Positions 9,001 to 19,111 of a stretch of DNA of 32,000 nt are shown one piece after another; the stretch's first letter is position 1; each line of letters opens with the position of its first letter. Below the pieces are notes generated by a model that saw nothing but the letters and a program-made list of their open reading frames with translations, was not told the DNA's origin and did not search any database. A program made the translations under genes and the position numbers. Location of the stretch: the NCBI RefSeq assembly GCF_000025945.1, contig NC_006139.1:60001-92000 (forward strand). The letters run 5' to 3'. Origin of the DNA: Desulfotalea psychrophila LSv54 (lineage in GTDB: Bacteria; Desulfobacterota; Desulfobulbia; Desulfobulbales; Desulfocapsaceae).

Positions 9001-11997
9001 GCCACCAAGAATAATGTTTTCCGTTGCATTAATATCAATTCCAACACCGCCTACCGCTGTTGTAGTAATCCCTTTTACAACATACGTATGGCCTGAACTG
9101 GTTACTTCGAGTTTGCCTAGTTTGTTGGTGCTGCCAACGAGACCCTGTAGGCTAACGTCACCAAGACCTGCGGCCAAAGTCAGAGTTTTTGCCGTACTGT
9201 CAAAGGAATCAATCGTGGACTCAAAGGTAATATTACCCGCAGTTTTTCCTGTGGTCACCAGCCGATCCTCTGTCAGGACGGTAGGACTAGCCACGACAAT
9301 AAAGCCCCCGAGTCCCTGGGTACTGTCGCCAACGTAGCTACCACCAATTGCAGAGAGATTCCCGTTAAGTGTAATTGCTTTATCTGTACCAGCGGTCAAA
9401 GAGATATTGCCAGCATTACCACCATTTCTATGACCAGCTCCAGTGGCATTGCCACCTGTTGCAGTTACGTCGGTCACAGTCACATGGCCACCAGTACTGG
9501 TGACTGATATAGCGGCGGCATTACTACCGACGCCAATTGCATTATTAGCACCGATTGTCGACACAGATTTCAAAATCACATCATCGGTCGCAATAATTGT
9601 TACCGATCCGGACGAAACACCTGTGTCCGCCGTTGCAGTAGTAGTAATAGTGCCATTATCGTCATCAGCGTTGACACCCCCAGACGTTGCGGTAAGGAGA
9701 ACATTCCCCGCGTTTGTGACAATGGAGTCGTTAAAAACAATTGAACCGGCAGTGATATCTACTACACCTGCCCCCCTACCTGTAACAACATCACTGTCGA
9801 CATCATTATCACCATCACTAAGAATCAGCACACTCGTGCCAGCATTGCCTAGGGTAAAGCTGCCACCGAAATCTGCCGAAGCCAGACTCACCGTGCCAAG
9901 GACATTGGCTATGGAGATGCTGCCAAAACCATCGGCAGAGAGGCTAACTGTCCCGGCAGAGGAGAATCCCCCCGTTAGTAAAATAGAACCGTTAGAGTTA
10001 AGTGCGGTGGAGATATTAACAGTACCTGCCGAGCCAACTGCCTGAGAACCTGTGATATTCCCATGAGCCACAAGAGTTAAACCATTGTTGCCTGCAGAGA
10101 CAGTCCCTAAGGTCAGCTTGCAATTATTTACAAGATGAACTCCATCATTTTCACCCGACGTAGCGGAGACAGTCCCCTTGAAAGTGTTAGCGAGAGACGT
10201 GGCGAGAACACTACCGTTTCTTGAGGTAAAGGATGTTGCGTCATGAACATACAAGCTATTATTCAATCCAGCAAAAATGTTACCGTCAGCATTGGCAGTG
10301 AGGGAGCCGTTATATAGACTCACCATTCCATTATTTCCGAGGGTGATGGCACCACCAGTAAGGGTTATGTCTGAATCCGCGTTGAGGGTAAGATTTCCGC
10401 TGACAGAGACAATCTTGGCATTAATATTAATATCATTGCTAGCGTTTAGTGTCAGATTGCCGTCGAAAGAGGCTATCTCGGCATTAATAATAATATCATT
10501 GCTAGCGATTAGTGTTAGGTTCTGATCACTAGACCAGCCAATTTTACTGGCAACGGTGATATTCCCATCCTCCAGAGTAGTGCCCCCCCCCGTTTGCACC
10601 GTCACATTACTATCCTTGAGTGCCGTTGTAAGCCTTTCCACGCTTAATACTGATGGAGTACCTGCAGAGGTAAAAAATTTTTCGTCTGTACTGCTGATAC
10701 TATTGTAATTTTCAGATGAACCATTTTTAATTGTTATATTAAAAGGATCAAGTAGCAGTGTACCGGTCTTGCCTTTTTTTGCCCGCAGATCGGTTATACC
10801 TTGATAGGCTAGTATTTTCTTACCTGACACCTCGGCAAAACCACCATCGCCATTTTCAGTGCCACCTTTAGCAGAAATAGTACCTGCAAACTGGGTGGTC
10901 TCATCCGACCAGATGATTACCTTGCCACCATGGCCGTTATAACCAGCATTTGCGGTAATTAGGGTCTTTTTCCCAACAAAGGTTTTTGTGGCATTTTTTA
11001 CAGTACTATTTTTACCCTGATAGTCGCCACCGACGAGGGCCGTGCCGCCACCACTGGCGCCGGAGACATCAATAACCGAGGTACCGGTTAGGGCGACACG
11101 GTCACCAAGTACCTGCACCGTACCACCCACATCACCTTTTTGGGCAGTAAGGGTGCCACTGTTCTCGGTTGTTCCCGTCCCTGAAACCAACCAAATACGA
11201 CCGCCACGTTCTTCACTCCCCGTTGCTCGCACAGCGCCCGTGTTATTGATAGCAAGGGCGAATTCATTACCCCCTACCGCCTTGAGCTCAGCACTGGCTG
11301 ATTCAATCAGCCCACTATTTTTTACCTTGCCGTCGGAGGCACCTGCGTGGATAAAAATGCGTTGATCACCCGATGCCCGGACAAGAATTTCACTCCCCGC
11401 CGCCAGGCCCACAGTGCCCTCTTTGGCCGTTATCGTTCCTGCATTCTGTACGTCATAGGCGATAAGCAGTACATCACCTGCAATGGCATTAATTTTTCCT
11501 AGGTTGATGACACTTGCGCCTGATTCGCCAAGAAATGTCATATCATCACCGGCTAGAAAGGCCTCATTGGCCACATCAAGGGTGGAGGCGACAAAACCTT
11601 TGGTATCAATAACGCCGGAGGGGCCAATGAGAATACCGTTCTGGTTAACCAGATAGACCTTGCCATTGGCAGTTAGGTTACCGTAAATTTGGGAGGGGTT
11701 GCGGGAGATAACCCTATTCAGGACGGCACTGGTGGCTGATGGTTGGATGAAGTTCGTTGTTTCACCGGCGCCAATCGAAAAGTCCTGCCAATTAATAATG
11801 GCTGAATTACTTCCCTGATTGACATTGAGTTTATTATGGGACCGATTGAAGGAGGCCGAACCACTAATTACCTGCCCACCCGTGGGATTTGCAAGCATGG
11901 TCACTGGAAACATCATCATAAGCGCAAGACAAAGTGCAATGGATTTTTCACATAAAACTAAGGCATTTCGCCCAAAACATAATCGCCAGCTCTTCAT
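1..11997 (-). CDS. Giant two-partner-secretion exoprotein (TpsA / filamentous-haemagglutinin family adhesin). It is partial: the 3' end runs off the left window edge, with at least 3999 codons in the window.
   Basis: The reverse complement of 11995-11997 is ATG, preceded by GGGAGTGAGG (SD-like) ending 6 nt upstream. Translation starts MKSWRLCFGRNALVLCEKSIALCLALMMMFPVTMLANPTGGQVISGSASFNRSHNKLNVNQGSNSAIINWQDFSIGAGETTNFIQPSATSAVLNRVISRNPSQIYGNLTANGKVYLVNQNGILIGPSGVIDTKGFVASTLDV. I hand-checked the frame (plus-strand triplets starting at positions 1 mod 3) for tta/cta/tca in the AT-richest blocks (5161-5520, 8581-8880, 10381-10860) and at 1-60 (..FTNNDANGTVLDDTLIGGNF) and found no stops. The three minus-strand ORFs the track lists in this span are in another frame. 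The plus-strand 'proteins' are A/V/P/S/T-rich mirror images, as expected for the antisense of a G/T/N/D-rich beta-helix. The ORF is absent from the track only because it has no stop inside the window. Confidence 0.9.
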   Translation of the reverse strand, partial: MKSWRLCFGRNALVLCEKSIALCLALMMMFPVTMLANPTGGQVISGSASFNRSHNKLNVNQGSNSAIINWQDFSIGAGETTNFIQPSATSAVLNRVISRNPSQIYGNLTANGKVYLVNQNGILIGPSGVIDTKGFVASTLDVANEAFLAGDDMTFLGESGASVINLGKINAIAGDVLLIAYDVQNAGTITAKEGTVGLAAGSEILVRASGDQRIFIHAGASDGKVKNSGLIESASAELKAVGGNEFALAINNTGAVRATGSEERGGRIWLVSGTGTTENSGTLTAQKGDVGGTVQVLGDRVALTGTSVIDVSGASGGGTALVGGDYQGKNSTVKNATKTFVGKKTLITANAGYNGHGGKVIIWSDETTQFAGTISAKGGTENGDGGFAEVSGKKILAYQGITDLRAKKGKTGTLLLDPFNITIKNGSSENYNSISSTDEKFFTSAGTPSVLSVERLTTALKDSNVTVQTGGGTTLEDGNITVASKIGWSSDQNLTLIASNDIIINAEIASFDGNLTLNASNDININAKIVSVSGNLTLNADSDITLTGGAITLGNNGMVSLYNGSLTANADGNIFAGLNNSLYVHDATSFTSRNGSVLATSLANTFKGTVSATSGENDGVHLVNNCKLTLGTVSAGNNGLTLVAHGNITGSQAVGSAGTVNISTALNSNGSILLTGGFSSAGTVSLSADGFGSISIANVLGTVSLASADFGGSFTLGNAGTSVLILSDGDNDVDSDVVTGRGAGVVDITAGSIVFNDSIVTNAGNVLLTATSGGVNADDDNGTITTTATADTGVSSGSVTIIATDDVILKSVSTIGANNAIGVGSNAAAISVTSTGGHVTVTDVTATGGNATGAGHRNGGNAGNISLTAGTDKAITLNGNLSAIGGSYVGDSTQGLGGFIVVASPTVLTEDRLVTTGKTAGNITFESTIDSFDSTAKTLTLAAGLGDVSLQGLVGSTNKLGKLEVTSSGHTYVVKGITTTAVGGVGIDINATENIILGGNDSEVVLDTSAANGSVDLDASSSVVLDDSVKITHGLGNVTMGYQVRSAVGESGAHHLIIEHGDTAGAGGVFGDIYFEYNLGSSANRIGAVRIDGVNNLRLPSYVYASSLTYADDVGTRVLGEGAITYNTNYTNSTINVDGAAGVDIYTKGAVVTPHGAITSTVFGADVTLQSTTNTVTQNGAITTNAGAVTIDGQSGVLLVADDSDITTAGGAITLTSSAGVVTISGNGADLTSTGGDIAIAGIGVSQTDTDNDIDAGSGKICIDGGGGIIDLDGTLISTATDAEEPPAVLIHDASVVNISRVTAINGTLRIGEMVGAVGSEIADVTGSVIQQDLSLITDKINIKTLEVNAASNLSITDTNNIIDNLGDFNLGGSLTVQAKGRTNGLQLTGDVEATAVTIRTGLNTGGTDGILSLVTTNITATSGDVLLQGRGVTQLVGSTITAADQILILGSDYSDGTVQAVTLGGDLIAGSTATDAVVIDDTGNLIIANITAGTVGNRGGLRLGTNIDRDTTGEGAASGVNLGYTRIYGTVNQTADSEIKVGRLSIHQESGAVTLTNTGNEIKELGTISRGGAINILDADTEKNGLTLMGHMDGGTLDSAVTITTPGLLNLGGYLIYGSAVDLNGGSDLADTENALTSSGGGVYAERNTGNLTIDAGGSRIALSGALYALTDDKVIIENASDVSLGRVSRTEFPSGQIGELVLGTSGNVITGNVTQATGNIAADTISGVVNGSALLAQTNYVDNVSDFSAIDGFTLSNNAFALTVIGDLLSTNGDILLRTTGTNDDITVNSSASIAANTLGTGAVSLVANGLASINVFDSVTAGSGGVSIVTAENINVSGGSSIETTGGVELRAINAADNGYHRGIVLGGNISAGDDGVAIHSGYTINQSGGVITTSGALYGINSSGTTTIGAGSPSARGYVKLDTDNEIAELGPFYLEDAVSVSPYFKLNDVSGGLTLTGAITNPYGDIEIATAGGRLVLATHAVTAGSSINGGANISLKGRGIKQTSGSISVNGNDGQGGTILLQGHDGAFAGAINLAGTLQTYNTSANAITIRGTTNLTLPEIDVAGGILTLGGSDVTHQITGVVTQNAGTSIDTDILVVTAESSVVLTNVGNKVGSLGAVSVGDVGGKQYDFDLYDSIGGLTLTGNVTSAGGLQIVTAKVEGGEVERLELSDKQVRSLGDLYLSGEEIHQAATGEVNSAYQSISSDDAGTITLAGGDAAITLEGKLYTNNARATAVQLLNATDVTLHEVGVSSGTLVLGTAGANDITGIVSQDDGGVISAKTLVGDVGILALDETLNLDELGALITTGDLTLLDQGGTLAAAGLTCVGDVAAGGTTRIETSDGVLDFATFDLDANGHGLTLVGVGITQDFTVDTGVSDSAIKASTASIDAGTGSILLGSSSNDFTGQVGLTAAGAQVTIRDTDDLTLNANGTSLDDTLGDDTSILAIAGSQLILTGDAITTDEGSIDFRSLGGNLSTPGALTTGSGNVDLYSSAILTLSNSIASTSGDITIDGATVAHVSGGGYSLQTGNAGTITVDARTGNYTQGLDFDYSTVAGDITINALNGAANVANIQSTSGDLYVTTGGDITQQGGTAVQVATLTAKAMADGSITLAGTANAVDTISLRSRNLADDATGSGTIGYIDVDGVVIDQIETSGNATLTAGDAVSTGARGTIAANLLTVKTLKDAGGDITLTETNDVNSIDFQTRNAADSDNAAGEIRFTDRDGFSVTNVKTTDIAVFDADGAVTQTGAIIAAGLGLSGSGGYTLNNEALGTPINQVSTIASNATGDVNFSTALALTIGTVNQVGVSTGGANFALLAPSIDSSSIPIDTQSAVAGENGGSLTLVTYGMGTDGNLTVSDIITSGQDATVANTDGGVAGNVTLTAAGDVLSIGGALIARGGALDGTGADGADALVRLTAATGAVSQTDGDNEIKTGRVIVNAANTSELLDLTNTIDEISATLTGADADFTFKNAGDFTVGINDGGVIGLSTNSGNIALSGSGDVTLATDATVATTGGDFSTVGRAFTSNSGATITTSGGNVDLTGHTGAVLLGADVTTAGGDITATEITSFDSMAVTLSTTGGSDESGGNINITSTGAVSIGMLVADGGSDSNGSGESAGSITLAADAKLTTAEINAIGSDHNSDSTIGGQGGVITLTGTGGIDLGGNIDASGGGSGATQAAGGSVILNSPTLLLADRSIDTGAGAGDITFNGSVDSEATETNNLTLTAGTGNIVLSGAVGSTQELGVIQVVSATDVTTTSTLDAASLIQTAGSGTTTVNGVMTLSGNLDFTGQNLAVNAGVATDASTQVHNTGTFSSALGGDIVANGGFSQDGTGVNELSGDITTVNNDIIFVTAITLNDAVAMDSDSGAGNITFSRTVDSAVGETDDLTISSGSGDVSFLDTLGALEQLGAIVVNCGALTRFDKAVTATSVYTDAPGAVHVNGGSVTTTGTQIYLEQLVLGADTTLTATTVITGDTLTGNNHSLDINGNVVLGNSTDDQVTGLSTLAVTGTTEIHTDTVTSANAQTYTGAVILGNSTTLTATDNAVTFNSTVNSQASETNALAVNSGSGAATFSGAIGDLVDGVLGALGVNSSNETTFTGAVKAASLTTNAGGSTTINGGSIETTGAQNYNDAVVLRADTVLTSGGTVNFAASVNSDVGQNRDLTIDAAGQSVNFVAAVGRADTLNALTIVDADNVTFSNTIDAASLTQQAGSGTTTLNGIATLSGNLDFTGAAFNVNARLNSGGTVEATNAGVFTTAAASDIDAAGGFTQNGAGPNNLAGAITTVGTNINFTSAVELTGDVSMSTGTTAGSIGFASTVDSDADLTLRSLRLTSANAAGQNFVAAVGANHALNILRIESTGVTQGGSAPINAAQLAIKSTDDATLANTGNDIDTLAALLSGDAALVFVDSDGVEIGTIDSGELQIVGITDGVGTSNVTLTVGGLLSQSVGSVVAIDGDMTIDASSFDAGNVQFTNNDANGTVLDDTLIGGNF
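10354..10542 (-). repeat. About three tandem copies of a 63-bp (21-codon) unit inside tpsA (beta-helix coil repeat).
   Basis: ggcattaatattaatatcattgctagcgtttagtgtcagattgccgtcgaaagaggctatctc (10417-10479) is followed by the near-identical ggcattaataataatatcattgctagcgattagtgttaggtt... (from 10480). The preceding 63 bp are a more diverged copy. Confidence 0.6.
10583..10591. repeat. C9 homopolymer (G9 on the coding strand) inside tpsA, at about codon 470.
   Basis: Read directly: ..agtagtgCCCCCCCCCgtttgcacc.. It encodes ..QTGGGTT.. on the minus strand, just downstream of the TPS domain. Confidence 0.9.
11100..11997 (-). other. Signal peptide (about residues 1-36) plus TPS secretion domain (haemagglutination-activity domain) of the TpsA protein. 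The lower boundary is approximate.
   Basis: A hydrophobic N-terminal stretch ends ..VTMLA|NPTGG. It is followed by TPS hallmark blocks: NPTGGQVISGSASF, INWQDFSIGAGETTNF, SAVLNRV, NPSQIYGNL, NGKVYLVNQNGILIG (the NPNL/NPNGI-type motifs of FHA/ShlA/HMW1-type TpsA proteins). Confidence 0.8.
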
Positions 11998-12793
11998 GTG
12001 CAACCTCACTCCCAGCAAAGATGATGTTGAATCCTTATAGAACACAATGATTTTATAGTATCTCAGCAAAGGTTAAATTTGCCCAAGCAGTTAAGCCATT
12101 AAGCGCCCAATGCATCGTAAAAAAAACCATTGCCCCACAGATAAAAGCTCTTTTCAGGATACGGAAAGAAAAAGAAGAAGTCAAAAAATGACAATGAGGG
12201 TTTCCTGCCAACAATTAAGACGAAGAGATTGAAAATCTGCCTTTTACCTAGCGATATTTTAAGTGATTTTGCCTATTTGTTTTATGAAATCATGCCAAAA
12301 CAATTCCATAGGAAGAACTTTGAGATCAACAAAACCCAAAAAAATTCTGTAGATATTCTTTGTTGAATATAAAACAATTATGCACTTTTTGTCATGAAAG
12401 TCCTAATGCTTTGAGATAAGTTGAGTCTAGGATCAAAAAAAAGGGCAAGAAAGTGGGATGAAAAGAGAGGAATTTGATTCAGAAAAACAGAGAGTTGGAG
12501 AGGCCAACCATCTTCAGGAGTTATGGGGTGATGGCTAAAGAGGATCTCGCCAATATAGGATTGATGGTGTCGCGGTCAGCTCTAAGATCAAGCGCTTTGG
12601 CTATTCTCGAGGAACAGGCTGGTAGGAATGCAGTGTTCACCTTATCTCGCTGGGCAGGGCTATGACTAAAAATAGTCTCATTATCTCAGGGCTTCCTTTT
12701 TAGTTTCGACCTAGCCATTAATTATGGAGGAAGAGGGGGCTAAAGGCAAGGGGTTGGGGGCCCTATGTGGCAGGATAGTTTTCGCCCTGGTAC

Positions 12794-13684
12794 TTACCTC
12801 TCCATCTCTGAACCAAAATATCGTTTCATTCGATAGACAAACTGGTTCCAGGTTCTCGCATTTTGATATTTTTCCTTTGTTTCGTACTTTTCAGCTCTTT
12901 TTTCAAATTCACCGAACTTTTTTTCCAAAAAAGCTTTTAAAAATTCACGCCCTAAGCTGCTGGCCTTGATGTGGTTTTGCTTTACCGATCCGATAGCAGA
13001 AATAACACAACCGTTGCCCCTTAACCTTACGGTTAAACCATAAATCGAGAACCCTTCCTGCAACTCCTGCCACGTTGTGGCCCTCTCTAAAATATCCCTT
13101 AAAGGCTCTTTACAATCTAACACATAGTTAAGCAAGGACTGCTTCCCTGCATGAGCATCTACATTCTGAGCCTTACTGTTGACCGCCTGTTCTCCCGCCT
13201 TCTCTTTTATCGACCCCACTATTTTCAAATTGTTTTCAATCTCTAGCTCTCTGCAAAGTTGAGTACATTTGATTTTATCCCAACCAGGGCTATTCTTTTT
13301 TTTCGTTAAAGGATCAATCATATTATAGGCAATATGCATATTGCTGGTATTATCATGAATTCCGCAGTGTCGCTGGTGTTCATCAAAGCCAAGTATTTCA
13401 GCAAAATTTTGCTCAATTTTTTTACAAATTTCTACATCTAGTTTCTGTCTATCTTCTGGAGGGAATGAGATAATTAGGTGGTAGGTGTTCCCCTGAACGC
13501 GACGGTTAAAACTCTGTGTGACAACCACCTCATCAATCACTAAATTATAATCATCTTCGATTGCTCCCCCGACAGTCCATGTTGCCAGACACTTTTCGCC
13601 ATCGTTGTTGGCATCAGCGATGTAGTTTGCCAGCTTGCGATAAGACCCCTTTGCGCCTTTAGCCTGCTCAATCTTACATATCAT
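12794..13684 (-). CDS. Conjugative/mobilisation relaxase, MobA/VirD2 (RP4 TraI-like, MOBP-type) N-terminal relaxase domain, 296 aa.
   Basis: The N-terminus MICKIEQAKGAKGSYRKLANYIADANNDGEK resembles the RP4 TraI N-terminus, with the catalytic Tyr in a ..YI.D.. context. It also carries HLIISFPPED and the histidine-triad motif HCGIHDNTSNMHIAYN (HxDxxxxxHxH). Confidence 0.8.
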   Translation of the reverse strand: MICKIEQAKGAKGSYRKLANYIADANNDGEKCLATWTVGGAIEDDYNLVIDEVVVTQSFNRRVQGNTYHLIISFPPEDRQKLDVEICKKIEQNFAEILGFDEHQRHCGIHDNTSNMHIAYNMIDPLTKKKNSPGWDKIKCTQLCRELEIENNLKIVGSIKEKAGEQAVNSKAQNVDAHAGKQSLLNYVLDCKEPLRDILERATTWQELQEGFSIYGLTVRLRGNGCVISAIGSVKQNHIKASSLGREFLKAFLEKKFGEFEKRAEKYETKEKYQNARTWNQFVYRMKRYFGSEMER

Positions 13685-13702
13685 CTCAAGCTATCTTTCA
13701 TC

Positions 13703-14035
13703 TTATTTATAATAGGGATTAATTTTTTTTTGTGTTGATTCAATCTCTTTCAGAACCCTCCTTAACTCTATCGGATCAAAGTTAGTTGGGCTGTTGCCGC
13801 TCAAATAAAATTTAAACAGCCCTCCAAGCCTCCCCAGATCCCCATTGACCTTCAAAAGATCAAGAAAAGATGGTCTTCCCTCCATGGATTCAATTTTTTT
13901 ACCTAATAAAGCCCTGCGAATAAACTCAGACTGCGTCAACCCCGTATAATAAACTTTCTTGATAATCAACTCATATTCCTGAAGGGTAACATGTGCCTTT
14001 AGAGTACGATTTCTAACCACTTTCTTTCCAACCAT
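13703..14035 (-). CDS. MobC-like relaxosome accessory protein (ribbon-helix-helix type), 110 aa.
   Basis: It lies immediately upstream of, and co-oriented with, the relaxase (18-nt gap). The pattern ..AHVTLQEYELI...GLTQSEFIRRALLG.. followed by ..DLGRLGGLFK.. is typical of MobC-family mobilisation proteins. Confidence 0.65.
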   Translation of the reverse strand: MVGKKVVRNRTLKAHVTLQEYELIIKKVYYTGLTQSEFIRRALLGKKIESMEGRPSFLDLLKVNGDLGRLGGLFKFYLSGNSPTNFDPIELRRVLKEIESTQKKINPYYK

Positions 14036-14086
14036 TTTAATTCCTCAATGGAGTGTAATTTACGTTGAGTCGAAGGCGAATAAGCC

Positions 14087-14107
14087 CCTCTCAGGATGAG
14101 CAAGAGG
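14087..14107 (-). promoter_or_regulatory. Candidate oriT nic region: an ATCCTG hexamer within a short inverted repeat upstream of mobC.
   Basis: The minus strand reads CCTCTTGCTCATCCTGAGAGG (5-bp arms CCTCT/AGAGG). ATCCTG is the conserved nick-region core of RP4/MOBP-type oriTs as I recall it. The site is about 50-70 bp upstream of the mobC start, where oriT is expected. Confidence 0.3.
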
Positions 14108-14149
14108 AAAGACCGGCAGACAAAGTGGGCCACTTTCCACATCTTGCCA

Positions 14150-14300
14150 GTTACCATCCACCGCCTTTGCTTGCCGAATGCTTGCTATTATGTTTGTTTT
14201 CTTGTTTGCTTTTATGTTTGTTATTTTGTTTTTTTATATGTTTATTTTTATGTTTTCTTATTTGTTTGCTTTTTCTTCGTGAAAACGAGGTTACTTTTGT
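14150..14300 (+). repeat. Strand-asymmetric T/G-rich low-complexity block made of degenerate TGTTT(G/T)(C/T)TTT-type units.
   Basis: ttgcttgccgaatgcttgctattatgtttgttttcttgtttgcttttatgtttgttattttgtttttttatatgtttatttttatgttttcttatttgtttgctttttcttcgtg. The block has few A's and shares the CTTGTTTTGTTT-like core with the iteron-like units at 14389-14460. Confidence 0.7.
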
Positions 14301-14386
14301 AGCTGAACCACCACTCAAAATAGTCCTCCACAAGACCTTTTTCCTATGAAAAGAAAGTTTAGCCATATGGCCATACCTTCTTGCCT

Positions 14387-14574
14387 GAAAACTACTTTCT
14401 TGTTTTGTTTACAAACTTATTTTTTGTTTTAATCACAAACTACTTTTTTGTTTTATTACAGGTTTCTTTTTATGTGACAAATCTTCTGCCTAAAGCATCA
14501 AAAACAATGGGTTATCTTATAAAAAATCGCGTTCTTCAGAGGGAAAATCGTAAGCCTTTTACAAGAGGCTGAGG
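14387..14574 (+). repeat. Direct repeat copy A (about 188 bp), left flank of the HTH-ATPase-DUF4276 operon.
   Basis: tgaaaactactttcttgttttgtttacaaacttattttttgttttaatcacaaactact...ttatgtgacaaatcttctgcc + taa(a)gc(c)atcaaaaa(c/t)aatgggttatcttata...cagagggaaaatcgtaagc...ctgagg matches 17199-17419. There are only a few substitutions in the first 104 bp. Confidence 0.9.
14389..14460 (+). repeat. Three tandem 24-bp iteron-like units (cluster A).
   Basis: AAACTACTTTCTTGTTTTGTTTAC / AAACTTATTTTTTGTTTTAATCAC / AAACTACTTTTTTGTTTTATTACA. The units are contiguous with no spacers. Confidence 0.75.
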
Positions 14575-14787
14575 CAAGAAAAATTTATAAATATCTGCAG
14601 GCAGGAGCATGAATGACGACACTTTTTTATGGTGCACCCGGCAATAGGTAAAATTATGCGCCTGCCTGAATAGTTGGGGCCTACCAATAAAAAATCCTTC
14701 CGCCCTTACTACCCAGGGCGAGTGCTCTAGGCATTGTTTGTCGACGTATTTAAGGCAGAAGGGGTCATAATGCCTTTGTGACATATT

Positions 14788-14830
14788 TTGCAAATATTGC
14801 GGAAACGACATAAAGTATTACTATGTCGTT
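14788..14830 (+). promoter_or_regulatory. Putative sigma70-type promoter (TTGCAA-17 nt-TAAAGT) overlapped by a perfect 9-bp inverted repeat, which is a likely XRE operator.
   Basis: TTGCAA is at 14788-14793 and TAAAGT at 14811-14816. AACGACATA (14804-14812) and TATGTCGTT (14822-14830) are perfect reverse complements with a 9-nt spacer, 7-22 nt upstream of the HTH gene start candidates. Confidence 0.45.
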
Positions 14831-14851
14831 AAAGACATGGGGGGAGTAAAA

Positions 14852-15094
14852 ATGCTACTTGTTTCAACAAAAGAGATTGGTGATGCTCTGCGACATAAGC
14901 GTAAACAGATGGGGCTTAGCCAGTCAGAACTTGGCAAGCGGGTAGGGCTTGATCAGAAAAAGGTATCATTGATGGAAAATGGCAACCCAAATACACGGGT
15001 GGAGAGTTTGTTACGTCTGCTTTCGGCATTGGAGTTAGGGGTAGTTTTGCAACCTAAGGCGGACTCTTCACAGAACGATAGTACAGATTTTTAA
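14852..15094 (+). CDS. XRE-family helix-turn-helix transcriptional regulator (HipB/Y4mF-like). An alternative start is at 14837.
   Basis: IGDALRHKRKQMGLSQSELGKRVGLDQKKVSLMENGNPNTRVESLLRLLSALELGVVLQPK is a classic Cro/C1-type HTH. GGGGGGAG lies just upstream of the ATG at 14852. Confidence 0.85.
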   Translation: MLLVSTKEIGDALRHKRKQMGLSQSELGKRVGLDQKKVSLMENGNPNTRVESLLRLLSALELGVVLQPKADSSQNDSTDF

Positions 15095-15140
15095 ATTCAT
15101 GAGTCCGCATAGGGATGTGAAAATTATTTATGGGAGCAAC

Positions 15141-16247
15141 ATGTCAATTTCTTTAGACAAACTAACCATTCGTGGCTTCAAATCCATCAGGGAGTTGGTT
15201 GATTTTGAGCTGGCTGATCTAAATGTGGTTGTGGGTGGAAATGGTGCCGGAAAAAGTAACCTGATTTCTTTTTTTAAAATGCTTCGAGCCCTGATCGACG
15301 GTAATTTAAACCGCTATGTAATAGAACACGGCGGCGCTGGTGATCTCCTTTTCAATGGCAGAAAAACAACTGAAAAAATGGAATTTGAAACCCACTTTAA
15401 TTCAAGAGGTTACCGTTTTAAATTGATTCCAACACCAAAAGATGCCTGTTCGCTTGAAGAGGAAGCTCGTTATTATGAGTCCGGCTTAACAGGTTGGTGG
15501 GAATTGGGAGACAGCCATGACGGTACGTCGCGCATGGTCAGCGAAGTGACGGAAAACAGATCCGATGGCCAGTACAGTAAACCGATATATGATGCCATTA
15601 GTTCCTGGCAGATTTATCACTTTCATGACACCGGTTCTAGGGCGGGTATGCGTCATTACGAGATTATTCAGGATAATAAAAGTCTACGTGCCGATGCCTC
15701 TAATATAGGGCCATTTTTGCTCAAACTCAAAAAGAAGCACCCGCAGGAATATAAAGATATCCTTAACGCCATTCGTCTAGTCACCCCCTTCTTTGAAGAT
15801 TTTCTTCTTGAACCACGAGAGAGTGGAAATAAGGAGGAGGTAAATATCAGCTGGAGGCAAAATGGATCGGATTATCCGATGCAACCTTACCACCTCTCCG
15901 ATGGCTCTATTCGATTTATCTGCCTGGCAACAGCCCTACTTCAACCTATGCCGCCAGCCGCAATAATCATTGATGAACCTGAGTTAGGGTTGCACCCTGC
16001 CGCCATTGTCATTCTAGCGGAACTCATCCAAATAGCCTCACAAAAGACACAGGTGATTATTGCCACTCAATCTCCCGCTTTGATGGATCAATTTGCCATT
16101 GAAGATATTATTGTTGTCAATCGGGAGGATGGCGCTTCAACATTCAAGAGACTGAAAGAGGAGAGCTTTTCAGAATGGTTGAAGAGTTATTCCGTCGGCG
16201 AGCTTTGGACCAAAAATGTGATTGCAGGAGGTCCGGTTCATGAGTGA
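15141..16247 (+). CDS. ABC/SMC-like AAA_21-type ATPase (OLD/AriA/AbiLi/PtuA-like ATPase module). An alternative upstream start is at 15099.
   Basis: MSISLDKLTIRGFKSIREL..VVVGGNGAGKSNLISF (Walker A); HLSDGSIRFICLATALL (ABC-signature-like); AAIIIDEPELGLHP (Walker B/D-loop); QVIIATQSPALMD. GGGAG lies 4 nt upstream of the ATG at 15141, whereas the ATG at 15099 has no SD. Confidence 0.85.
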   Translation: MSISLDKLTIRGFKSIRELVDFELADLNVVVGGNGAGKSNLISFFKMLRALIDGNLNRYVIEHGGAGDLLFNGRKTTEKMEFETHFNSRGYRFKLIPTPKDACSLEEEARYYESGLTGWWELGDSHDGTSRMVSEVTENRSDGQYSKPIYDAISSWQIYHFHDTGSRAGMRHYEIIQDNKSLRADASNIGPFLLKLKKKHPQEYKDILNAIRLVTPFFEDFLLEPRESGNKEEVNISWRQNGSDYPMQPYHLSDGSIRFICLATALLQPMPPAAIIIDEPELGLHPAAIVILAELIQIASQKTQVIIATQSPALMDQFAIEDIIVVNREDGASTFKRLKEESFSEWLKSYSVGELWTKNVIAGGPVHE

Positions 16248-16926
16248 TTTTATCGAGGTGATGGTCATTGTCGAAGGAAAAACTGAAGAGAACTTTGTTA
16301 AAAGCCTGTTAAGTAAATATCTTTCTGAAAGAAATATCTTTATGTCTGCCACACAAGTTACTAAACTGGGGCAAAAGGGCGGTGATGTTCGTTTTGAACG
16401 AGTTAAAAATGATATTGGACTTCACTTAAAACAACGGGCTGACACTTATGTAACCACATTGGTCGATTATTACGGCATAAAAGAATGGCCTGGGTTAGAT
16501 GAGGTTCCACCTCGGTCCACTCCGACCAAGATTGCACAAATTGTTAACCGAGCGACTAGCGATAAAGTGAGGGCGCTTTTTTCAAGTCTGAATACAGATC
16601 GACGCTTTGTGCCCTATATTGCAATTCATGAATTTGAGGCGTTACTATTTTCTGACAGTCGTATTCTTGCTTCAGAGCTAGGAATAAGTGAAGAGGAGGT
16701 TACATCTGTCCTCGTAAAATGCAGCGAGCCGGAGGCGATTAACAACAGTCCTGAAACGGCTCCCTCAAAGCGGCTTGATGGCTGGGCAAAGAACGGTAAA
16801 TTTGCAAAAACGAGTGCCGGAATTGCTATCGCCAAAATAATAGGAATTGCTGCTATGCGTGATAGATGCCCAGTTTTCAATGACTGGCTTGAAAGGTTGG
16901 AGATGATTCAGAGAGATTTGCCATGA
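16240..16926 (+). CDS. DUF4276-like (TOPRIM-like) protein, about 229 aa, translationally coupled to the ATPase. The track ORF starts at 16222.
   Basis: MSDFIEVMVIVEGKTEENFVKSLL (hhhVEGxxE, a TOPRIM-type acidic motif), LVDYYG, IAIHEFEALLFSD, NNSPETAPSKRLD. Size and motifs fit my recollection of DUF4276. AGGAGG lies 8 nt upstream of the ATG at 16240, and the start overlaps the ATPase stop (ATGAGTGA). Confidence 0.6.
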   Translation: MSDFIEVMVIVEGKTEENFVKSLLSKYLSERNIFMSATQVTKLGQKGGDVRFERVKNDIGLHLKQRADTYVTTLVDYYGIKEWPGLDEVPPRSTPTKIAQIVNRATSDKVRALFSSLNTDRRFVPYIAIHEFEALLFSDSRILASELGISEEEVTSVLVKCSEPEAINNSPETAPSKRLDGWAKNGKFAKTSAGIAIAKIIGIAAMRDRCPVFNDWLERLEMIQRDLP

Positions 16927-17198
16927 AACTGAAATTTAAGAAGTAAACCTATCAGGCAAGAACCCAGGGTGAAGGATTATTTTTAGGGCCGGCAATTGGC
17001 AAGATCGCTAAACACAAGCCGATCTACACAGAGAGCAGGGGAAAAGCCGGAGAGAATCTTCAGAAATAACTATTTGGGGACCATAAACTATAGCAGCGCT
17101 CAGACGAATTTAGACCTTCTATTAAATTTATCCTGCAGATGATTCTCCAAATACTTACTTTGGCAGGAGCGGGCTGCAGACACCTCCTTATCTTAATT

Positions 17199-17419
17199 GA
17201 AAACTACTTTCTTGTTTTGTTTACAAACTTATTTTTTGTTTTAATCACAAACTACTTTCTTGTTTTATTACAGGTTTATTTTTATGTGACAAATCTTCTG
17301 CCACCCTCAAAAAAAAAGATCATTGCAAACTAAGTGATTTATGCCTAAGCCATCAAAAATAATGGGTTATCTTATATTTTTCAGAGGGAAAATCGTAAGC
17401 ATTTTGTAAGTGTCTGAGG
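17199..17419 (+). repeat. Direct repeat copy B (about 221 bp; it carries a 43-bp insertion at 17303-17345 relative to copy A), right flank of the operon and upstream of the rep-like gene.
   Basis: See copy A. The offset between copies is 2812 bp. The insertion accctcaaaaaaaaagatcattgcaaactaagtgatttatgcc sits between the two conserved segments. Confidence 0.9.
17201..17272 (+). repeat. Three tandem 24-bp iteron-like units (cluster B), about 560 bp upstream of the rep-like gene.
   Basis: Same three units as cluster A, with one substitution in the third unit (ACTTTCTTG vs ACTTTTTTG). Confidence 0.75.
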
Positions 17420-17700
17420 ACAAAGAGTTCTGCTAATCGTCGGAGGATATTGAGAGTTGATGGGACGGATCTCTTCTCTCGTCCAACCCAAACGACAACA
17501 TTCCCCTTGCCAAAAAAAAAAGTATTAGGTAATTTCAGGCTGTGCTAAAAAAAAGCACAATGGGTTTGGAAGCCCATCCTGTCCACGGCGAATACACACG
17601 CCACCAGTCTGTTTTTTAAAGGTGGTTTTTTTATGCCTTTTGTTTAAGGCTATAGTATCGTGTATTCATATATCACAGCATTGAACCGCACAGAATTTCT

Positions 17701-17788
17701 AGGGCGGGCTATATGTGGGAGCTTCGGCTCGCTGGTTCCGTGGATCAGTCTTCCAACCCATATAGTCCCGCCCTTTTTTGTTTGGAAG
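17701..17788 (+). ncRNA. Structured RNA element or intrinsic-terminator-like long hairpin with a UUCG tetraloop sub-hairpin, a U6 tail and an alternative pairing. Possibly a rep-leader attenuator or a small regulatory RNA.
   Basis: GGGCGGG (17702-08) pairs with CCCGCCC (17767-73). CTATATG (17709-15) pairs with CATATAG (17759-65). The inner hairpin is GAGC-TTCG-GCTC (17719-30), followed by TTTTTT (17774-79). Alternative helix: CTTCCAA (17750-56) with TTGGAAG (17782-88). No plus-strand ORF ends upstream of it. Confidence 0.45.
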
Positions 17789-17829
17789 CAGAAGGGGGCG
17801 GTGAATCCTACAACCACGGAGACACTGCT

Positions 17830-18846
17830 ATGATAAGAAGAGGTTTCAGCAACATCTTTTCAGAGAAGACATTTGCAAGCAACGAACAATTCAACACCGC
17901 CTGCAGACAGCTCAGAATCACTCAAGACGTACAATTAATCTACTCAAGCCTTCACTGGCTTTCGCTCAAGACAGGCTATGCATGGCCTTCTCAGAGCTTT
18001 CTCGCCAACGAGATAGGACGCTCACTTCGTACCGTTAAATCGCACATTGCCAAGCTCAAGAGCCTTGGGCTCATAATCGTTAAGCAACGCAATAACGGGC
18101 AGACTGCCTTATACTATCCACTGCCTTTAAGCGAAGTAGCAGCACACCTCCCAGGATGCGCCCAGAGCCAAGCTGATGGGGTCAACGGACAGGGTGAACG
18201 CCATAGTGTCGCTGGATTTATCTCTCAGAAGGGCAATAAGCGCACCGCCACGAGGCACGATTCTGCACACCTCCATAATATAGAGATTAGTACAAGTACT
18301 ATTCCCCCTAAGTCCCCCACAGGGGAAGAGGCTGAGATTTCCTTCCTGAAACTTTGGGAGGTGTGGCCCATCCAACAGGCGAAGAAGTCAGCACGTAGAA
18401 TCTTCATGCGTCTCTACCGTCGTGGAATCATTCCTTCCGTGGAACACCTCTTGAGGATTGTGCAGAACCTGAAGAAATATGACAGGGCATGGATGAACGG
18501 CAAGGTTGCACAACTCCACCGATGGTTACGAGATGAGAGGTGGACAGATAAGGCCTTTAAAGGCCTACAGCCTGCCCCTGTGGCAGCACCCAAAGTCTCT
18601 AAGGCGATAGAACCTGAATTCACACCAGAAGAGCATAGGGCAAGGTCCAGCTACCTGGAACTGTCAGTGGCGGTTATGACCCGGAGGGCCTCCACCGCAT
18701 TGGATCATATCACAGAGAAAATTGTAGAAGGGCTAGGAGGGCTCCAGCGGCTACGAAAGAAGGGGATGACGTGTTTACCTATGGCAACTTCCTTGAAGAA
18801 TACAGAAGCTTACAGGCCGCTTAAGGACTTAGGGTGGTATTGTTGA
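17830..18846 (+). CDS. Winged-helix DNA-binding protein, plasmid/phage replication-initiator-like. The track ORF starts at 17713; I favour the ATG at 17830.
   Basis: YSSLHWLSLKTGYAWPSQSFLANEIGRSLRTVKSHIAKLKSLGLIIVKQRNNGQTALYYPLP is a typical wHTH of Rep/replication-organiser-type proteins. The C-terminal FLKLWEVWPIQQAKKSARRIF...RWLRDERWTD block is common in phage/plasmid replication-associated proteins. ACGGAGA lies upstream of the ATG at 17830. The first 39 codons of the track ORF coincide with the hairpin element. Confidence 0.6.
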   Translation: MIRRGFSNIFSEKTFASNEQFNTACRQLRITQDVQLIYSSLHWLSLKTGYAWPSQSFLANEIGRSLRTVKSHIAKLKSLGLIIVKQRNNGQTALYYPLPLSEVAAHLPGCAQSQADGVNGQGERHSVAGFISQKGNKRTATRHDSAHLHNIEISTSTIPPKSPTGEEAEISFLKLWEVWPIQQAKKSARRIFMRLYRRGIIPSVEHLLRIVQNLKKYDRAWMNGKVAQLHRWLRDERWTDKAFKGLQPAPVAAPKVSKAIEPEFTPEEHRARSSYLELSVAVMTRRASTALDHITEKIVEGLGGLQRLRKKGMTCLPMATSLKNTEAYRPLKDLGWYC

Positions 18847-18889
18847 TACCATTTTAAATTTGGCTCATGTTGCGTTTCGGGGTCGTAAC

Positions 18890-18918
18890 TTGGTAAAAGA
18901 ATGTTTTACTTTTACCAA
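18890..18918. repeat. Perfect 10-bp inverted repeat (hairpin) 44 nt downstream of the rep-like stop.
   Basis: TTGGTAAAAG-aatgtttta-CTTTTACCAA. There is no T-tract after it, so it is not a canonical intrinsic terminator. Confidence 0.6.
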
Positions 18919-18940
18919 CTACTTAAAAGAGTCTCACTAT

Positions 18941-19111
18941 ATGAAGGTAAACATAAAGACCCTGATAGATGATGTACAATGTTACGACACCGTGCGTGAG
19001 TTACGCTGGCCCGAAGGCCGAGAATGTCCGTTTTGTAATTCTAAGAAAGTTATCAAGAGAGGTTATGACGACAAGGAACCTGCAAGACAACGCTATGAGT
19101 GTAAAGGCTGA
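18941..19111 (+). pseudogene. IS1595-family (ISXO2-like) transposase N-terminal zinc-ribbon stub, truncated after about 56 codons.
   Basis: MKVNIKTLIDDVQCYDTVRELRWPEGRECPFCNSKKVIKRGYDDKEPARQRYECKG* matches the ..RWP.G..CP.C.S....K.G.......Y.CK.C.. N-terminal module of IS1595 transposases. The stop falls inside the second CxxC and no DDE domain follows. Confidence 0.7.

What the first reader, a model, noticed from the sequence alone, without database searches (positions are those of the whole stretch)
14788..16926. XRE regulator + ABC/AAA_21 ATPase + DUF4276 (TOPRIM-like) operon: a candidate uncharacterised PARIS/AbiL/OLD-like defence module
Three co-directional, tightly packed genes sit behind their own promoter/operator.

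- An XRE-family HTH (14852-15094).
- An ABC/SMC-like ATPase of about 370 aa. It carries Walker A GGNGAGKSN, the signature-like HLSDGS, and Walker B/D-loop IIIDEPELGLHP.
- A protein of about 229 aa whose features match what I remember of DUF4276, a TOPRIM-like family: VMVIVEGKTEE at the N-terminus, LVDYYG, HEFEALLFSD and SPETAPSKRL.

The ATPase stop and the downstream start overlap (ATGAGTGA, with AGGAGG 8 nt upstream), which implies translational coupling and probably a complex.

A split 'ABC ATPase + TOPRIM-like partner' is the architecture of PARIS (AriA / AriB-DUF4435) and AbiL (AbiLi / AbiLii-RloB). It is also the unfused version of OLD/GajA nucleases. All of these are anti-phage systems. 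Here the partner belongs to a different family and a dedicated XRE regulator is attached.

I do not know of an experimentally characterised ATPase-DUF4276 system, and I cannot check that here.

The cassette is cargo of a mobilisable plasmid-like island and is bracketed by direct repeats. Both are typical of defence cassettes.
Basis: partly seen in the sequence, partly recalled or inferred. Interest (0 to 1): 0.85.

Follow-up and report, generated by a model that had tools for sequence, protein, structure and literature searches.

The report
HEC-01 defence pair behind captured HipB
The three genes are real, but the ATPase + DUF4276 pair is the already named candidate anti-phage system HEC-01, and its "dedicated regulator" is a HipB antitoxin, with its promoter and operators, left over from a hipBA toxin-antitoxin module whose toxin gene was replaced.

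Summary
Three co-directional genes are present: an 80-aa XRE HTH (14852-15094), a 368-aa ABC ATPase (true start 15141, ends 16247) and a 228-aa DUF4276 protein (16240-16926). The last two share the 8-nt ATGAGTGA overlap.

The novelty claim fails. PADLOC-DB models match both proteins full-length (HEC-01A 9e-142, HEC-01B 3e-70). HEC-01 was defined by Payne et al. 2024. [quoted passage not shown] A distant relative of the pair is MAD3-MAD4 of MADS.

The pair is adjacent in 36/36 other loci from many phyla. About a fifth of them sit inside Type III RM-like modules. None has an XRE gene.

The XRE is a HipB. Its closest relatives (69-73% identical) precede a 435-aa HipA in 10/10 places. DNA homology (~71%, E ~1e-36) covers the promoter, two operators and hipB, then stops at the last hipB codons. 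The window has no hipA. The near-universal C-terminal Trp is replaced by Phe.

The flanking direct repeats are iteron arrays beside a Rep-like gene. The fusion was not found elsewhere.

Verdict: an ordinary new member of a known candidate system, with a one-off regulatory front end borrowed from a TA module.

The parts
14379..14574 (.). Left copy of the ~200-bp direct repeat. It holds three iteron-like 18-mers (AAACTACTTTCTTGTTTT) at 24-nt spacing.
   Evidence: There are 6 iteron matches in the window, all inside the two repeats, against 0.04 expected by chance.
14765..14851 (+). hipBA-type promoter/operator region. The distal imperfect operator is ATGCC-N5-GACAT (14770-14784). The proximal perfect operator is CGACAT-N11-ATGTCG (14806-14828); it overlaps a -10-like TACTAT, with a -35-like TTGCGG 16 nt upstream.
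   Evidence: DNA homology to five hipBA loci starts at 14765-14806 and the alignment shows conserved half-sites. The palindrome is unique in the window. It is present upstream of hipB in 6 of 10 hipBA loci and in none of the HEC-01 loci. The promoter hexamers were read by eye and fall below the scanner's threshold.
14852..15094 (+). HipB-family XRE HTH protein (80 aa): an orphan antitoxin/autorepressor. Its C-terminal tail is altered and ends in Phe instead of the near-universal Trp.
   Evidence: sub-threshold hits to the HipB/Y4mF models; 10/10 closest homologues precede HipA; 94 of 96 homologues end in W.
15099..15140 (+). 14 codons in frame with the ATPase (MSPHRDVKIIYGSN). They are possibly a relic of the hipA 5' end; HipA homologues begin MSPKKNISLQIL. 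Probably not translated as part of the ATPase.
   Evidence: N-terminal comparison; homologues start at the equivalent of 15141. The segment is too short for a statistical test, so this is an inference.
15141..16247 (+). HEC-01A: a 368-aa ABC/SMC-head-type ATPase with Walker A K38, signature LSDGS 252-256, Walker B D278/E279 and D-loop H285. Q310 sits where the H-loop His is expected.
   Evidence: AAA_21 6e-52; PDLC04175, 9e-142, full length; motif invariance; AF2 pLDDT 81.8; SMC head TM 0.63/0.70, E 1e-15; also Rad50, PtuA, Ts OLD.
16240..16926 (+). HEC-01B: a 228-aa DUF4276 protein, the TOPRIM-like presumed nuclease effector. E12, E16, D76, H130, E131 and E133 are invariant. It is translationally coupled to HEC-01A through an 8-nt overlap.
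   Evidence: PF14103 1.6e-57; PDLC04188, 2.9e-70; invariant columns; AF2 pLDDT 92.6; OLD-like_TOPRIM sub-threshold in 34/63 members; RloB-like phage protein, prob 0.99, TM 0.45-0.48.
17191..17419 (.). Right copy of the direct repeat. It carries the same three iteron-like units plus a 43-nt insertion and a 10-nt deletion relative to the left copy.

Best explanation
The core is a standard two-gene HEC-01 module on the large plasmid of Desulfotalea psychrophila.

**Likely mechanism (by analogy with PARIS, OLD and Septu).** HEC-01A is a compact ABC/SMC-head ATPase. It most likely acts as the sensor and keeper of HEC-01B, a TOPRIM-like, metal-dependent nuclease made in fixed ratio through translational coupling. 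A phage- or plasmid-derived trigger would change the ATP-dependent state of the ATPase and license the nuclease. The nuclease would then cut nucleic acid and abort the infection. The target could be tRNA, as for AriB and recently for P2 OLD, or DNA.

**What is particular here is the front end.** The pair has replaced hipA in a Desulfobulbales-type hipBA toxin-antitoxin module. It is now transcribed from the hipBA promoter, downstream of an intact hipB. The HipB-like protein probably still binds its two operators and autorepresses the operon. That would keep the potentially toxic pair at low level, and if the protein has kept HipB's lability, it would allow de-repression under stress.

**Shown:** family identity, co-conservation of the pair, ABC fold, hipBA origin of the XRE gene and its operators, and absence of hipA.

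**Inferred:** sensor/effector roles, nuclease activity and substrate, and repression by the HipB-like protein.
For: **Identity as HEC-01**
- Full-length PADLOC hits: HEC-01A 9e-142 and HEC-01B 2.9e-70.
- Pfam AAA_21 and DUF4276.

**The pair is an obligate unit**
- The ATPase lies directly upstream of DUF4276 in 30/30 loci with a (near-)complete DUF4276 gene, plus 6 more loci.
- The 8-nt overlap is conserved.
- Cross-phylum identity is 70-82% for A and 59-69% for B.

**Defence association**
- About 5 of 27 independent loci have a Type III MTase within three genes of the pair, and several of these also have Res. Two have DrmD-like helicases.
- One HEC-01 cluster protected E. coli B against at least one of T4, T5 and T7.
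- Deleting mad3 or mad4 weakens MADS.

**ABC fold**
- AF2 model versus SMC head, Rad50, PtuA and Ts OLD, all at E <= 1e-12.

**TOPRIM-like partner**
- The model has beta1-alpha1-beta2-alpha2-beta3-alpha3-beta4 order.
- Invariant E12/E16, D76 and E131/E133 mirror P2 OLD's E398/E402, D453 and D541/E543.
- Recurrent sub-threshold OLD-like_TOPRIM hits and an RloB-like structural match.
- Published assignments.

**hipBA origin**
- 10/10 closest XRE homologues precede HipA.
- ~71% DNA identity over 14765-15069, E 1e-34 to 1e-38 for four of the five loci compared.
- The operator palindrome is shared with hipBA loci only.
- There is no hipA in the window.
- HipB alone binds its operator tightly, and its C-terminal tail is a Lon degron (PMC3376134).
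Against: - Payne et al. saw no defence from their HEC-01 representative against BASEL and classic coliphages. The positive report is a single screen with few details.
- Foldseek of the DUF4276 model against the PDB gave no significant TOPRIM hit. The best E was 0.04, and AriB came at rank 37 with E 0.2.
- The canonical TOPRIM DxD is only D-Y-Y here.
- The H-loop His is replaced by an invariant Gln, so ATP turnover may be atypical.
- No consensus promoter or terminator was detected for the operon.
- The HipB-like protein has lost the conserved C-terminal Trp and about 10 tail residues. Its stability and function are therefore unknown.
- The hipB-HEC-01 junction was found nowhere else, so there is no evidence that selection maintains it.
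Confidence: 0.6

Rival explanations
1. Toxin swap into an addiction module. The trio works as a toxin-antitoxin-like plasmid stabilisation or abortive-infection unit. A labile HipB-like repressor keeps a toxic ATPase/nuclease pair silent. Plasmid loss or transcription shut-off lets the repressor decay and the pair kills the cell. Here HEC-01 has functionally replaced HipA.
For: - hipA is precisely replaced while hipB, both operators and the promoter geometry are retained.
- The location is between the mob and rep genes of a plasmid.
- The HipB tail is a Lon degron in E. coli.
- A distant ATPase-DUF4276 pair lies directly downstream of vapBC on a small mobilisable Acinetobacter plasmid.
Against: - This is a single occurrence. 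The junction is absent from 241 M metagenome records and from IMG/VR at the sensitivity of the pattern used.
- 36 other HEC-01 loci need no antitoxin-like partner, so the pair is presumably self-inhibited.
- Repression-only control would not neutralise protein that has already been made.
- The tail sequence has changed.
Confidence: 0.2
2. Accidental relic. A recombination event destroyed hipBA. The orphan hipB is a decaying leftover with no regulatory significance for HEC-01, which functions exactly as in any stand-alone locus.
For: - No other HEC-01 locus has an XRE.
- The junction is unique.
- The conserved terminal Trp is lost.
- The distal operator has a half-site mismatch.
- The neighbourhood is littered with IS fragments.
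Against: - The hipB ORF is intact and 69-73% identical to functional-context homologues.
- The proximal operator is perfect.
- No alternative promoter for HEC-01A is visible in the 46-nt gap or by the scanner, so transcription most simply comes through hipB.
Confidence: 0.25
3. HEC-01 is only an accessory arm of methylation-based systems, as MAD3-MAD4 is in MADS/Hma or as seen in Type III RM-like modules. Without a partner methyltransferase or helicase it is inert here.
For: - It was discovered embedded in Hma.
- mad5 can be deleted only together with mad2 or mad3, which links the ATPase to the restriction arm.
- About 20% of sampled loci lie in Type III-like modules.
- A stand-alone clone gave no defence.
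Against: - Most sampled loci (~75%) have no RM genes within three genes of the pair. Examples are E. coli L003 among housekeeping genes and L035.
- A HEC-01 cluster gave protection in E. coli B.
- The very high conservation of stand-alone copies argues for autonomous function.
Confidence: 0.15
4. One reading: a previously unrecognised three-gene defence system with its own dedicated XRE regulator.
For: The three genes are tightly packed, and operator-like palindromes lie upstream.
Against: - The pair is already named and modelled and has been tested.
- The XRE is absent from all other loci and is of hipBA origin.
Confidence: 0.03

Closest known systems
HEC-01 (Hma-embedded candidate 01; PADLOC-DB; Payne et al. 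2024, bioRxiv 10.1101/2024.01.29.577857)
   Same: - Both proteins match the HEC-01A and HEC-01B models full-length (9e-142 and 2.9e-70).
- Same two-gene order and overlap, the same ABC ATPase fold and the same TOPRIM-like partner.
   Different: This copy is not embedded in an Hma or RM system. It is plasmid-borne between mob and rep genes and is preceded by a captured hipB with the hipBA promoter and operators.
MAD3-MAD4 of MADS (Maestri et al.; 'MADS3-4' in PMC11464382)
   Same: An AAA_21-type ABC ATPase plus a DUF4276 protein. Both genes contribute to defence in P. aeruginosa.
   Different: Only distant similarity: PADLOC mad3 1.7e-30 and NCBIfam MAD3 99 bits against a cutoff of 420. No other mad genes are nearby.
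PARIS (AriA / AriB-DUF4435)
   Same: A split ABC ATPase sensor plus a TOPRIM-family effector. This is the likely mechanistic template: sequestration, then release of a nuclease.
   Different: - The partner is DUF4276, not DUF4435.
- AriA is only a weak sequence hit (PDB phmmer 2e-4) and is not among the top 50 structural matches.
- AriB is not a significant structural match.
- No copies were found in 50,697 phage records, whereas PARIS is often phage- or satellite-borne.
AbiL (AbiLi / AbiLii-RloB) and RloB-type partners
   Same: A split AAA_21-like ATPase plus a small TOPRIM-like protein. An RloB-like phage protein is the most specific structural match of the DUF4276 model, and the only named TOPRIM-family hit (prob 0.99, TM 0.45-0.48, full length).
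   Different: No sequence-level RloB hit. AbiLi matches only weakly (7e-23, against 9e-142 for HEC-01A).
OLD / Gabija GajA nucleases
   Same: - ABC ATPase with a D-loop His (H285, matching P2 OLD H306).
- TOPRIM acidic residues with the same spacing: E12/E16 match E398/E402, and E131/E133 match D541/E543.
- Ts OLD is a structural match of the ATPase.
   Different: - The two domains are separate proteins rather than fused.
- The second Asp of DxD is Tyr.
- The H-loop His is Gln.
hipBA type II toxin-antitoxin module
   Same: The XRE gene, promoter geometry and two GACAT/ATGTC operators are homologous to Desulfobulbales hipBA loci at about 71% DNA identity.
   Different: There is no HipA anywhere in the window. 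The HipB tail is rewritten and lacks the terminal Trp. HEC-01A/B occupy the toxin position.

Membership tests
HEC-01 (PADLOC) | Protein A matches a HEC-01A profile | tested here: met
   PDLC04175, 9.2e-142, residues 17-379 of the 382-aa ORF against profile positions 4-362 of 363.
HEC-01 (PADLOC) | Protein B matches a HEC-01B profile | tested here: met
   PDLC04188, 2.9e-70, residues 4-223 against profile positions 12-226 of 230.
HEC-01 (PADLOC) | The A and B genes are adjacent and co-directional | tested here: met
   8-nt overlap at 16240-16247. The same arrangement is seen in 36 other loci.
HEC-01 (PADLOC) | Anti-phage phenotype | not testable with these tools
Pfam DUF4276 (PF14103) | Score above the gathering threshold over the whole domain | tested here: met
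   195.3 bits against a cutoff of 30.2, profile positions 1-192 of 192.
TOPRIM superfamily | beta1-alpha1-beta2-alpha2-beta3-alpha3-beta4 core | tested here: met
   The AF2 model (pLDDT 92.6) has E5-11, H14-29, E33-39, H52-63, E69-76, H95-113 and a short strand at 123-128. Strand order within the sheet could not be inspected.
TOPRIM superfamily | Conserved Glu at the end of beta1 | tested here: met
   E12 is invariant in 63 sequences, and so is E16. These correspond to P2 OLD E398 and E402.
TOPRIM superfamily | DxD motif after beta3 | tested here: not met
   D76 is invariant, but the +2 position is an invariant Tyr (D76-Y77-Y78-G79). E131 and E133 may supply the missing acids; that is an inference.
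TOPRIM superfamily | Significant similarity to a recognised TOPRIM family or structure | tested here: inconclusive
   - Pfam OLD-like_TOPRIM is sub-threshold in 34/63 members, best E 2e-4.
- Foldseek against the PDB gave nothing significant.
- BFVD gave an RloB-like protein at prob 0.99, TM 0.45-0.48.
- Published assignments exist.
ABC ATPase (SMC/Rad50/OLD-type head) | Walker A, signature, Walker B and D-loop motifs plus an ABC head fold | tested here: met
   The motifs are invariant or nearly so. Foldseek gives SMC head TM 0.63/0.70 at E 1e-15, plus Rad50, PtuA, OLD and RecN. Exception: Q310 stands in place of the H-loop His.
PARIS | AriB partner with a DUF4435 TOPRIM domain | tested here: not met
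   No DUF4435 or AriB hit in Pfam or PADLOC. AriB 8ux9_A scores E 0.2, TM 0.23.
AbiL | AbiLii / RloB (PF13707) partner | tested here: not met
   No RloB sequence hit even at E <= 10. There is only a borderline structural resemblance.
OLD / Gabija GajA | ATPase and TOPRIM fused in one polypeptide | tested here: not met
   Two separate ORFs. Old and GajA models match only parts of the ATPase.
MADS | MAD3 equivalog score and presence of mad6-8 | tested here: not met
   NCBIfam MAD3 scores 99.1 bits against a cutoff of 420. The neighbours are mob, rep, IS and sugar-nucleotide genes.
hipBA TA module | HipB-type HTH with hipBA operators | tested here: met
   The closest homologues precede HipA in 10/10 places. 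Operator and promoter are homologous. The NCBIfam HipB/Y4mF models score below their cutoffs.
hipBA TA module | HipA kinase toxin downstream of hipB | tested here: not met
   tblastn with five HipA proteins against the whole window gives a best E of 0.33.
hipBA TA module | Conserved C-terminal Trp of HipB | tested here: not met
   The window protein ends ...NDSTDF, whereas 94 of 96 homologues end in W.

The most novel reading that the evidence does not exclude
This is a natural 'toxin swap'. An ABC-ATPase/TOPRIM defence pair has taken the place of the HipA kinase behind an intact HipB repressor and its operators. The result would be a hybrid addiction/abortive-infection module in which a labile TA antitoxin acts purely as a transcriptional fuse for a defence effector. 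If it is functional, it would be a concrete evolutionary intermediate linking type II TA modules and ATPase-nuclease immune systems. It would also give a natural inducible context in which the still uncharacterised HEC-01 activity could be triggered.
Probability: 0.2. Interest if true: 0.55.

Novelty: new member of a known kind. Interest (0 to 1): 0.3.

Why it matters
The finding adds little to the catalogue, because the pair is already indexed as HEC-01.

Two things are useful:

1. HEC-01 is mechanistically uncharacterised and has conflicting phenotype reports. This survey shows an extremely conserved, strictly coupled pair that spreads across phyla. It carries an OLD-like set of acidic residues, an invariant Gln at the H-loop position and a DYY in place of DxD. 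These are concrete targets for mutagenesis.
2. The hipB-HEC-01 chimera is a clean example of regulatory capture from a TA module. It offers a natural repressor/operator handle for switching the pair on in a controlled way.

Tried and rejected
- **PLSDB megablast** of 12500-19000 found no match, so the source was identified through the exact proteins instead.
- **Exact-protein look-up** of the DUF4276 protein found nothing on record.
- **Foldseek of the DUF4276 model against the PDB** returned only noise. I therefore do not claim a fold-level TOPRIM match.
- **Profile search of DUF4276 against PDB sequences** found nothing meaningful.
- **Consensus scan** found no promoter upstream of the HTH and no + strand terminator after 16926.
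- **Automated inverted-repeat search** with 12-nt arms missed the 6-9-nt operator arms. They were recovered by alignment and pattern search.
- **Search for a hipA relic** with tblastn and blastn of hipBA loci found none beyond a possible 7-9-codon resemblance at 15099.
- **Scans for a recurring hipB-to-HEC-01A junction** in IMG/VR and JGI metagenomes, using two patterns, gave 0 hits. The patterns demand exact matches at the specified bases, so divergent junctions could be missed.
- **E. coli complete RefSeq genomes** lack the E. coli-type pair, and **phage records** lack DUF4276 relatives.
- **A RecF/RecR-like housekeeping role** was considered and rejected, because the pair is patchy, horizontally spread, and embedded in RM modules or carried on plasmids.
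- **Transposon-type ends** were considered for the flanking repeats and rejected in favour of iteron arrays.


Full report
**1. Observation**

The three co-directional ORFs exist as described.

- **HTH gene, 14852-15094 (80 aa).** It hits Pfam HTH_31 and HTH_3.
- **ATPase.** The ORF opens at 15099. All homologues, and the NCBI protein for this very sequence (P0121, 368 aa), start at the equivalent of ATG 15141, which follows a GGGAG. It is a strong AAA_21 member (6e-52). Its Walker A (K38), LSDGS signature, Walker B (D278/E279) and D-loop His (H285) are invariant across homologues.
- **Partner, 16240-16926 (228 aa).** It matches the whole DUF4276 profile (1.6e-57).
- **Overlap.** The ATGAGTGA overlap with AGGAGG 8 nt upstream is present.
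- **Source.** Exact-sequence matches place the window on the 121,587-bp contig of *Desulfotalea psychrophila*. That size fits its large plasmid, which I know from memory rather than from a tool result.

**2. The pair is already a named system**

- PADLOC-DB v2 has dedicated models. HEC-01A (PDLC04175) scores 9e-142 and HEC-01B (PDLC04188) scores 2.9e-70, both end to end. They are far ahead of the AriA, AbiLi, Old, GajA and mad3 models.
- Payne et al. (bioRxiv 10.1101/2024.01.29.577857) defined HEC-01 as an ABC ATPase plus a TOPRIM-like protein found embedded in Hma systems. They noted a metal site conserved with Bp OLD. Their representative gave no defence in E. coli.
- A cold-seep survey (bioRxiv 10.1101/2024.09.26.614923) reported that one HEC-01 cluster protected E. 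coli B against at least one of T4, T5 and T7.
- The Menshen analysis (PMC12065111) places DUF4276 and RloB in the Toprim superfamily and equates DUF4276 with Mad4.
- The PARIS paper (PMC11464382) lists AbiL and 'MADS3-4' among ABC-ATPase/TOPRIM systems.
- In MADS, deleting mad3 or mad4 reduces protection. mad5 can be deleted only together with mad2 or mad3.

**3. Comparative genomics of the pair**

- The DUF4276 protein has more than 1,200 relatives at 90% clustering. Identity across Desulfobacterota, Gammaproteobacteria, Verrucomicrobiota/Lentisphaerota, Spirochaetota and others is 59-69% for the partner and 70-82% for the ATPase.
- In 30 of 30 loci with a (near-)complete DUF4276 gene, the ATPase lies directly upstream, usually with the same 8-nt overlap. 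Six further loci agree.
- Flanking genes are heterogeneous. Among 134 neighbours from 27 independent loci, the commonest families were ResIII (6), N6_N4_Mtase (5) and DEAD (5). There were also RE_endonuc and SNF2/DrmD-like helicases. In other words, about a fifth of loci are embedded in Type III RM-like modules (examples).
- Other loci are stand-alone among housekeeping genes.
- The family is rare on plasmids: 12 of 72,556 records. It is absent from 50,697 phage records.

**4. Structure**

- **ATPase model** (pLDDT 81.8). It matches SMC heads (TM 0.63/0.70, E 1e-15), Rad50, retron/Septu PtuA, Ts OLD and RecN. This confirms a compact ABC head without a coiled coil. By sequence it is only remotely related to any solved protein (best 1.5e-6). 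At the position where P2 OLD has its H-loop His (H332, 33 residues after Walker B D299), HEC-01A has an invariant Gln (Q310, 32 residues after D278).
- **DUF4276 model** (pLDDT 92.6). It has TOPRIM-like beta-alpha order followed by a helical C-terminal half.
  - Invariant E12/E16, D76 and E131/E133 mirror P2 OLD metal-site residues E398/E402, D453 and D541/E543 in order and spacing. The second Asp of DxD is an invariant Tyr.
  - Foldseek against the PDB gave no significant match.
  - The viral library gave an RloB-like protein (prob 0.99, TM 0.45-0.48).
  - 34 of 63 family members give sub-threshold hits to Pfam OLD-like_TOPRIM over beta1-alpha1-beta2.
  - Overall, TOPRIM affinity is supported but not proven here.

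**5. The 'XRE regulator' is a captured HipB**

- None of the other HEC-01 loci has an XRE upstream.
- The window's HTH has 96 close relatives. Those that carry a taxonomic label are Desulfobulbales/Desulfobacter, and sources often name them HipB.
- In all 10 places examined for three of the closest relatives (69-73% identity), the gene is followed, with overlapping stop and start, by a 435-aa HipA (Couple_hipA + HipA_C).
- DNA homology between those hipBA loci and the window runs from 14765 to 15069. For four of the five loci it is ~71% identical over ~270-310 nt at E 1e-34 to 1e-38. It covers the promoter region, two operators built from GACAT/ATGTC half-sites, and hipB up to about codon 73.
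- The proximal operator, CGACAT-N11-ATGTCG, occurs once in the window (14806-14828, against 0.02 expected by chance). It lies upstream of hipB in 6 of 10 hipBA loci and in none of the HEC-01 loci.
- Homology ends in the last hipB codons. 94 of 96 relatives end in Trp, while the window protein ends ...NDSTDF.
- No hipA remnant exists in the 32 kb (best tblastn E 0.33). The one possible exception is the 14 codons at 15099-15140: MSPHRDV... against HipA's MSPKKNI.... They are in frame with the ATPase but too short to test.
- Published work shows that E. coli HipB alone binds its operator tightly. Its conserved C-terminal Trp docks on HipA, and its last 16 residues are a Lon degron (PMC3376134 and PMC10627512).
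- The simplest reading is that hipA was replaced by the HEC-01 pair, which is now transcribed from the hipBA promoter under a HipB-like autorepressor.
- Two degenerate-pattern scans of JGI metagenomes and one of IMG/VR found no second example of the junction, so it appears to be a one-off.

**6. Context**

- To the left are a MobA/VirD2-type relaxase and a NikA-like protein on the - strand.
- To the right are a Rep-like protein (HTH_36 + RP-C), IS fragments and sugar-nucleotide genes.
- The flanking ~200-bp direct repeats each contain three iteron-like 18-mers at 24-nt spacing, found nowhere else in the window. They are best read as duplicated origin iteron arrays rather than a signature of a defence cassette.

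**7. Mechanism and verdict**

- The best-supported model is a PARIS/OLD-like sensor-effector pair. The ATPase holds and licenses a TOPRIM-like nuclease, here under the transcriptional control of a borrowed TA repressor.
- Identity is near certain. The mechanism is inferred by analogy and is weakened by the mixed phenotype data.
- Rival readings are given with tests in the Rival explanations section: a TA-like addiction hybrid, an irrelevant hipB relic, and an accessory-only role that requires an RM partner.
- Novelty: a new member of a known candidate system with an unusual, single-instance regulatory front end. Interest is modest.

Noticed in passing
window 17697-17776 (+), and 17541-17617 (+): A full-length match to Rfam C4 antisense RNA (RF01695): 45.2 bits against a gathering score of 45, E 1e-5. 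A weak isrK-like hit (24 bits, below threshold) lies just before it. Both sit between the right iteron repeat and the Rep-like ORF 17713-18846, and the C4 match overlaps that ORF's 5' end. A P1/P7-type c4-like antisense regulator may control the rep-like gene.
   Followed up: partly
window 1-12072 (- strand): One stop-free reading frame of at least 4,024 codons runs off the left edge of the window. The other five frames hold 91-385 stops. The translation has no Pfam family at E <= 1e-5, and GC is ~0.48-0.54 against ~0.40 for the mob/HEC-01/rep block. The + strand ORFs listed there are shadow ORFs. This is a giant orphan protein gene on the plasmid.
   Followed up: partly
window 14178-14274: A T-rich tandem array with a 12-nt period (about 7 copies; also read as 24- or 36-nt units). 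It lies between the NikA-like gene and the left iteron repeat and may be part of oriT or oriV.
   Followed up: no
window 14700-14721 (- strand): A terminator-like GC hairpin followed by a T-run on the - strand. It sits in the 190-bp spacer between the left repeat and the hipBA-derived segment. No annotated - strand gene ends there, and the 91-aa - strand ORF 14536-14811 that contains it is probably spurious.
   Followed up: no
window 16066-16074 (ATPase residues T309-Q310-S311): HEC-01A carries an invariant Gln where ABC ATPases such as P2 OLD (H332) have the H-loop His. The OLD-type D-loop His (H285) is kept. This may mean slow or switch-like ATP turnover.
   Followed up: partly
L048 (Acinetobacter sp. 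TR11 plasmid pTR11_2) 2141-4666: On a 10.9-kb MOBQ mobilisable plasmid, a distant ATPase-DUF4276 pair (37% identity) lies 146 nt downstream of an intact, co-directional vapBC TA module. This is a second case of a TA module next to this kind of pair on a small plasmid.
   Followed up: no
window 18860-19111, 20484-21065, 28110-29198: Transposase remnants: an IS1595 zinc-ribbon fragment, an IS66 DDE fragment and an rve integrase-core ORF. They are interleaved with sugar-nucleotide/polysaccharide genes (epimerase, NTP-transferase, UDP-glucose dehydrogenase). GC falls to 0.24-0.33 at 29-32 kb.
   Followed up: no
L002 1797-2904: In a 3x-coverage metagenome contig, the HEC-01A gene is split into 204-aa and 184-aa ORFs. 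An otherwise identical locus (L001) has it intact. This is probably a sequencing frameshift rather than a pseudogene.
   Followed up: no
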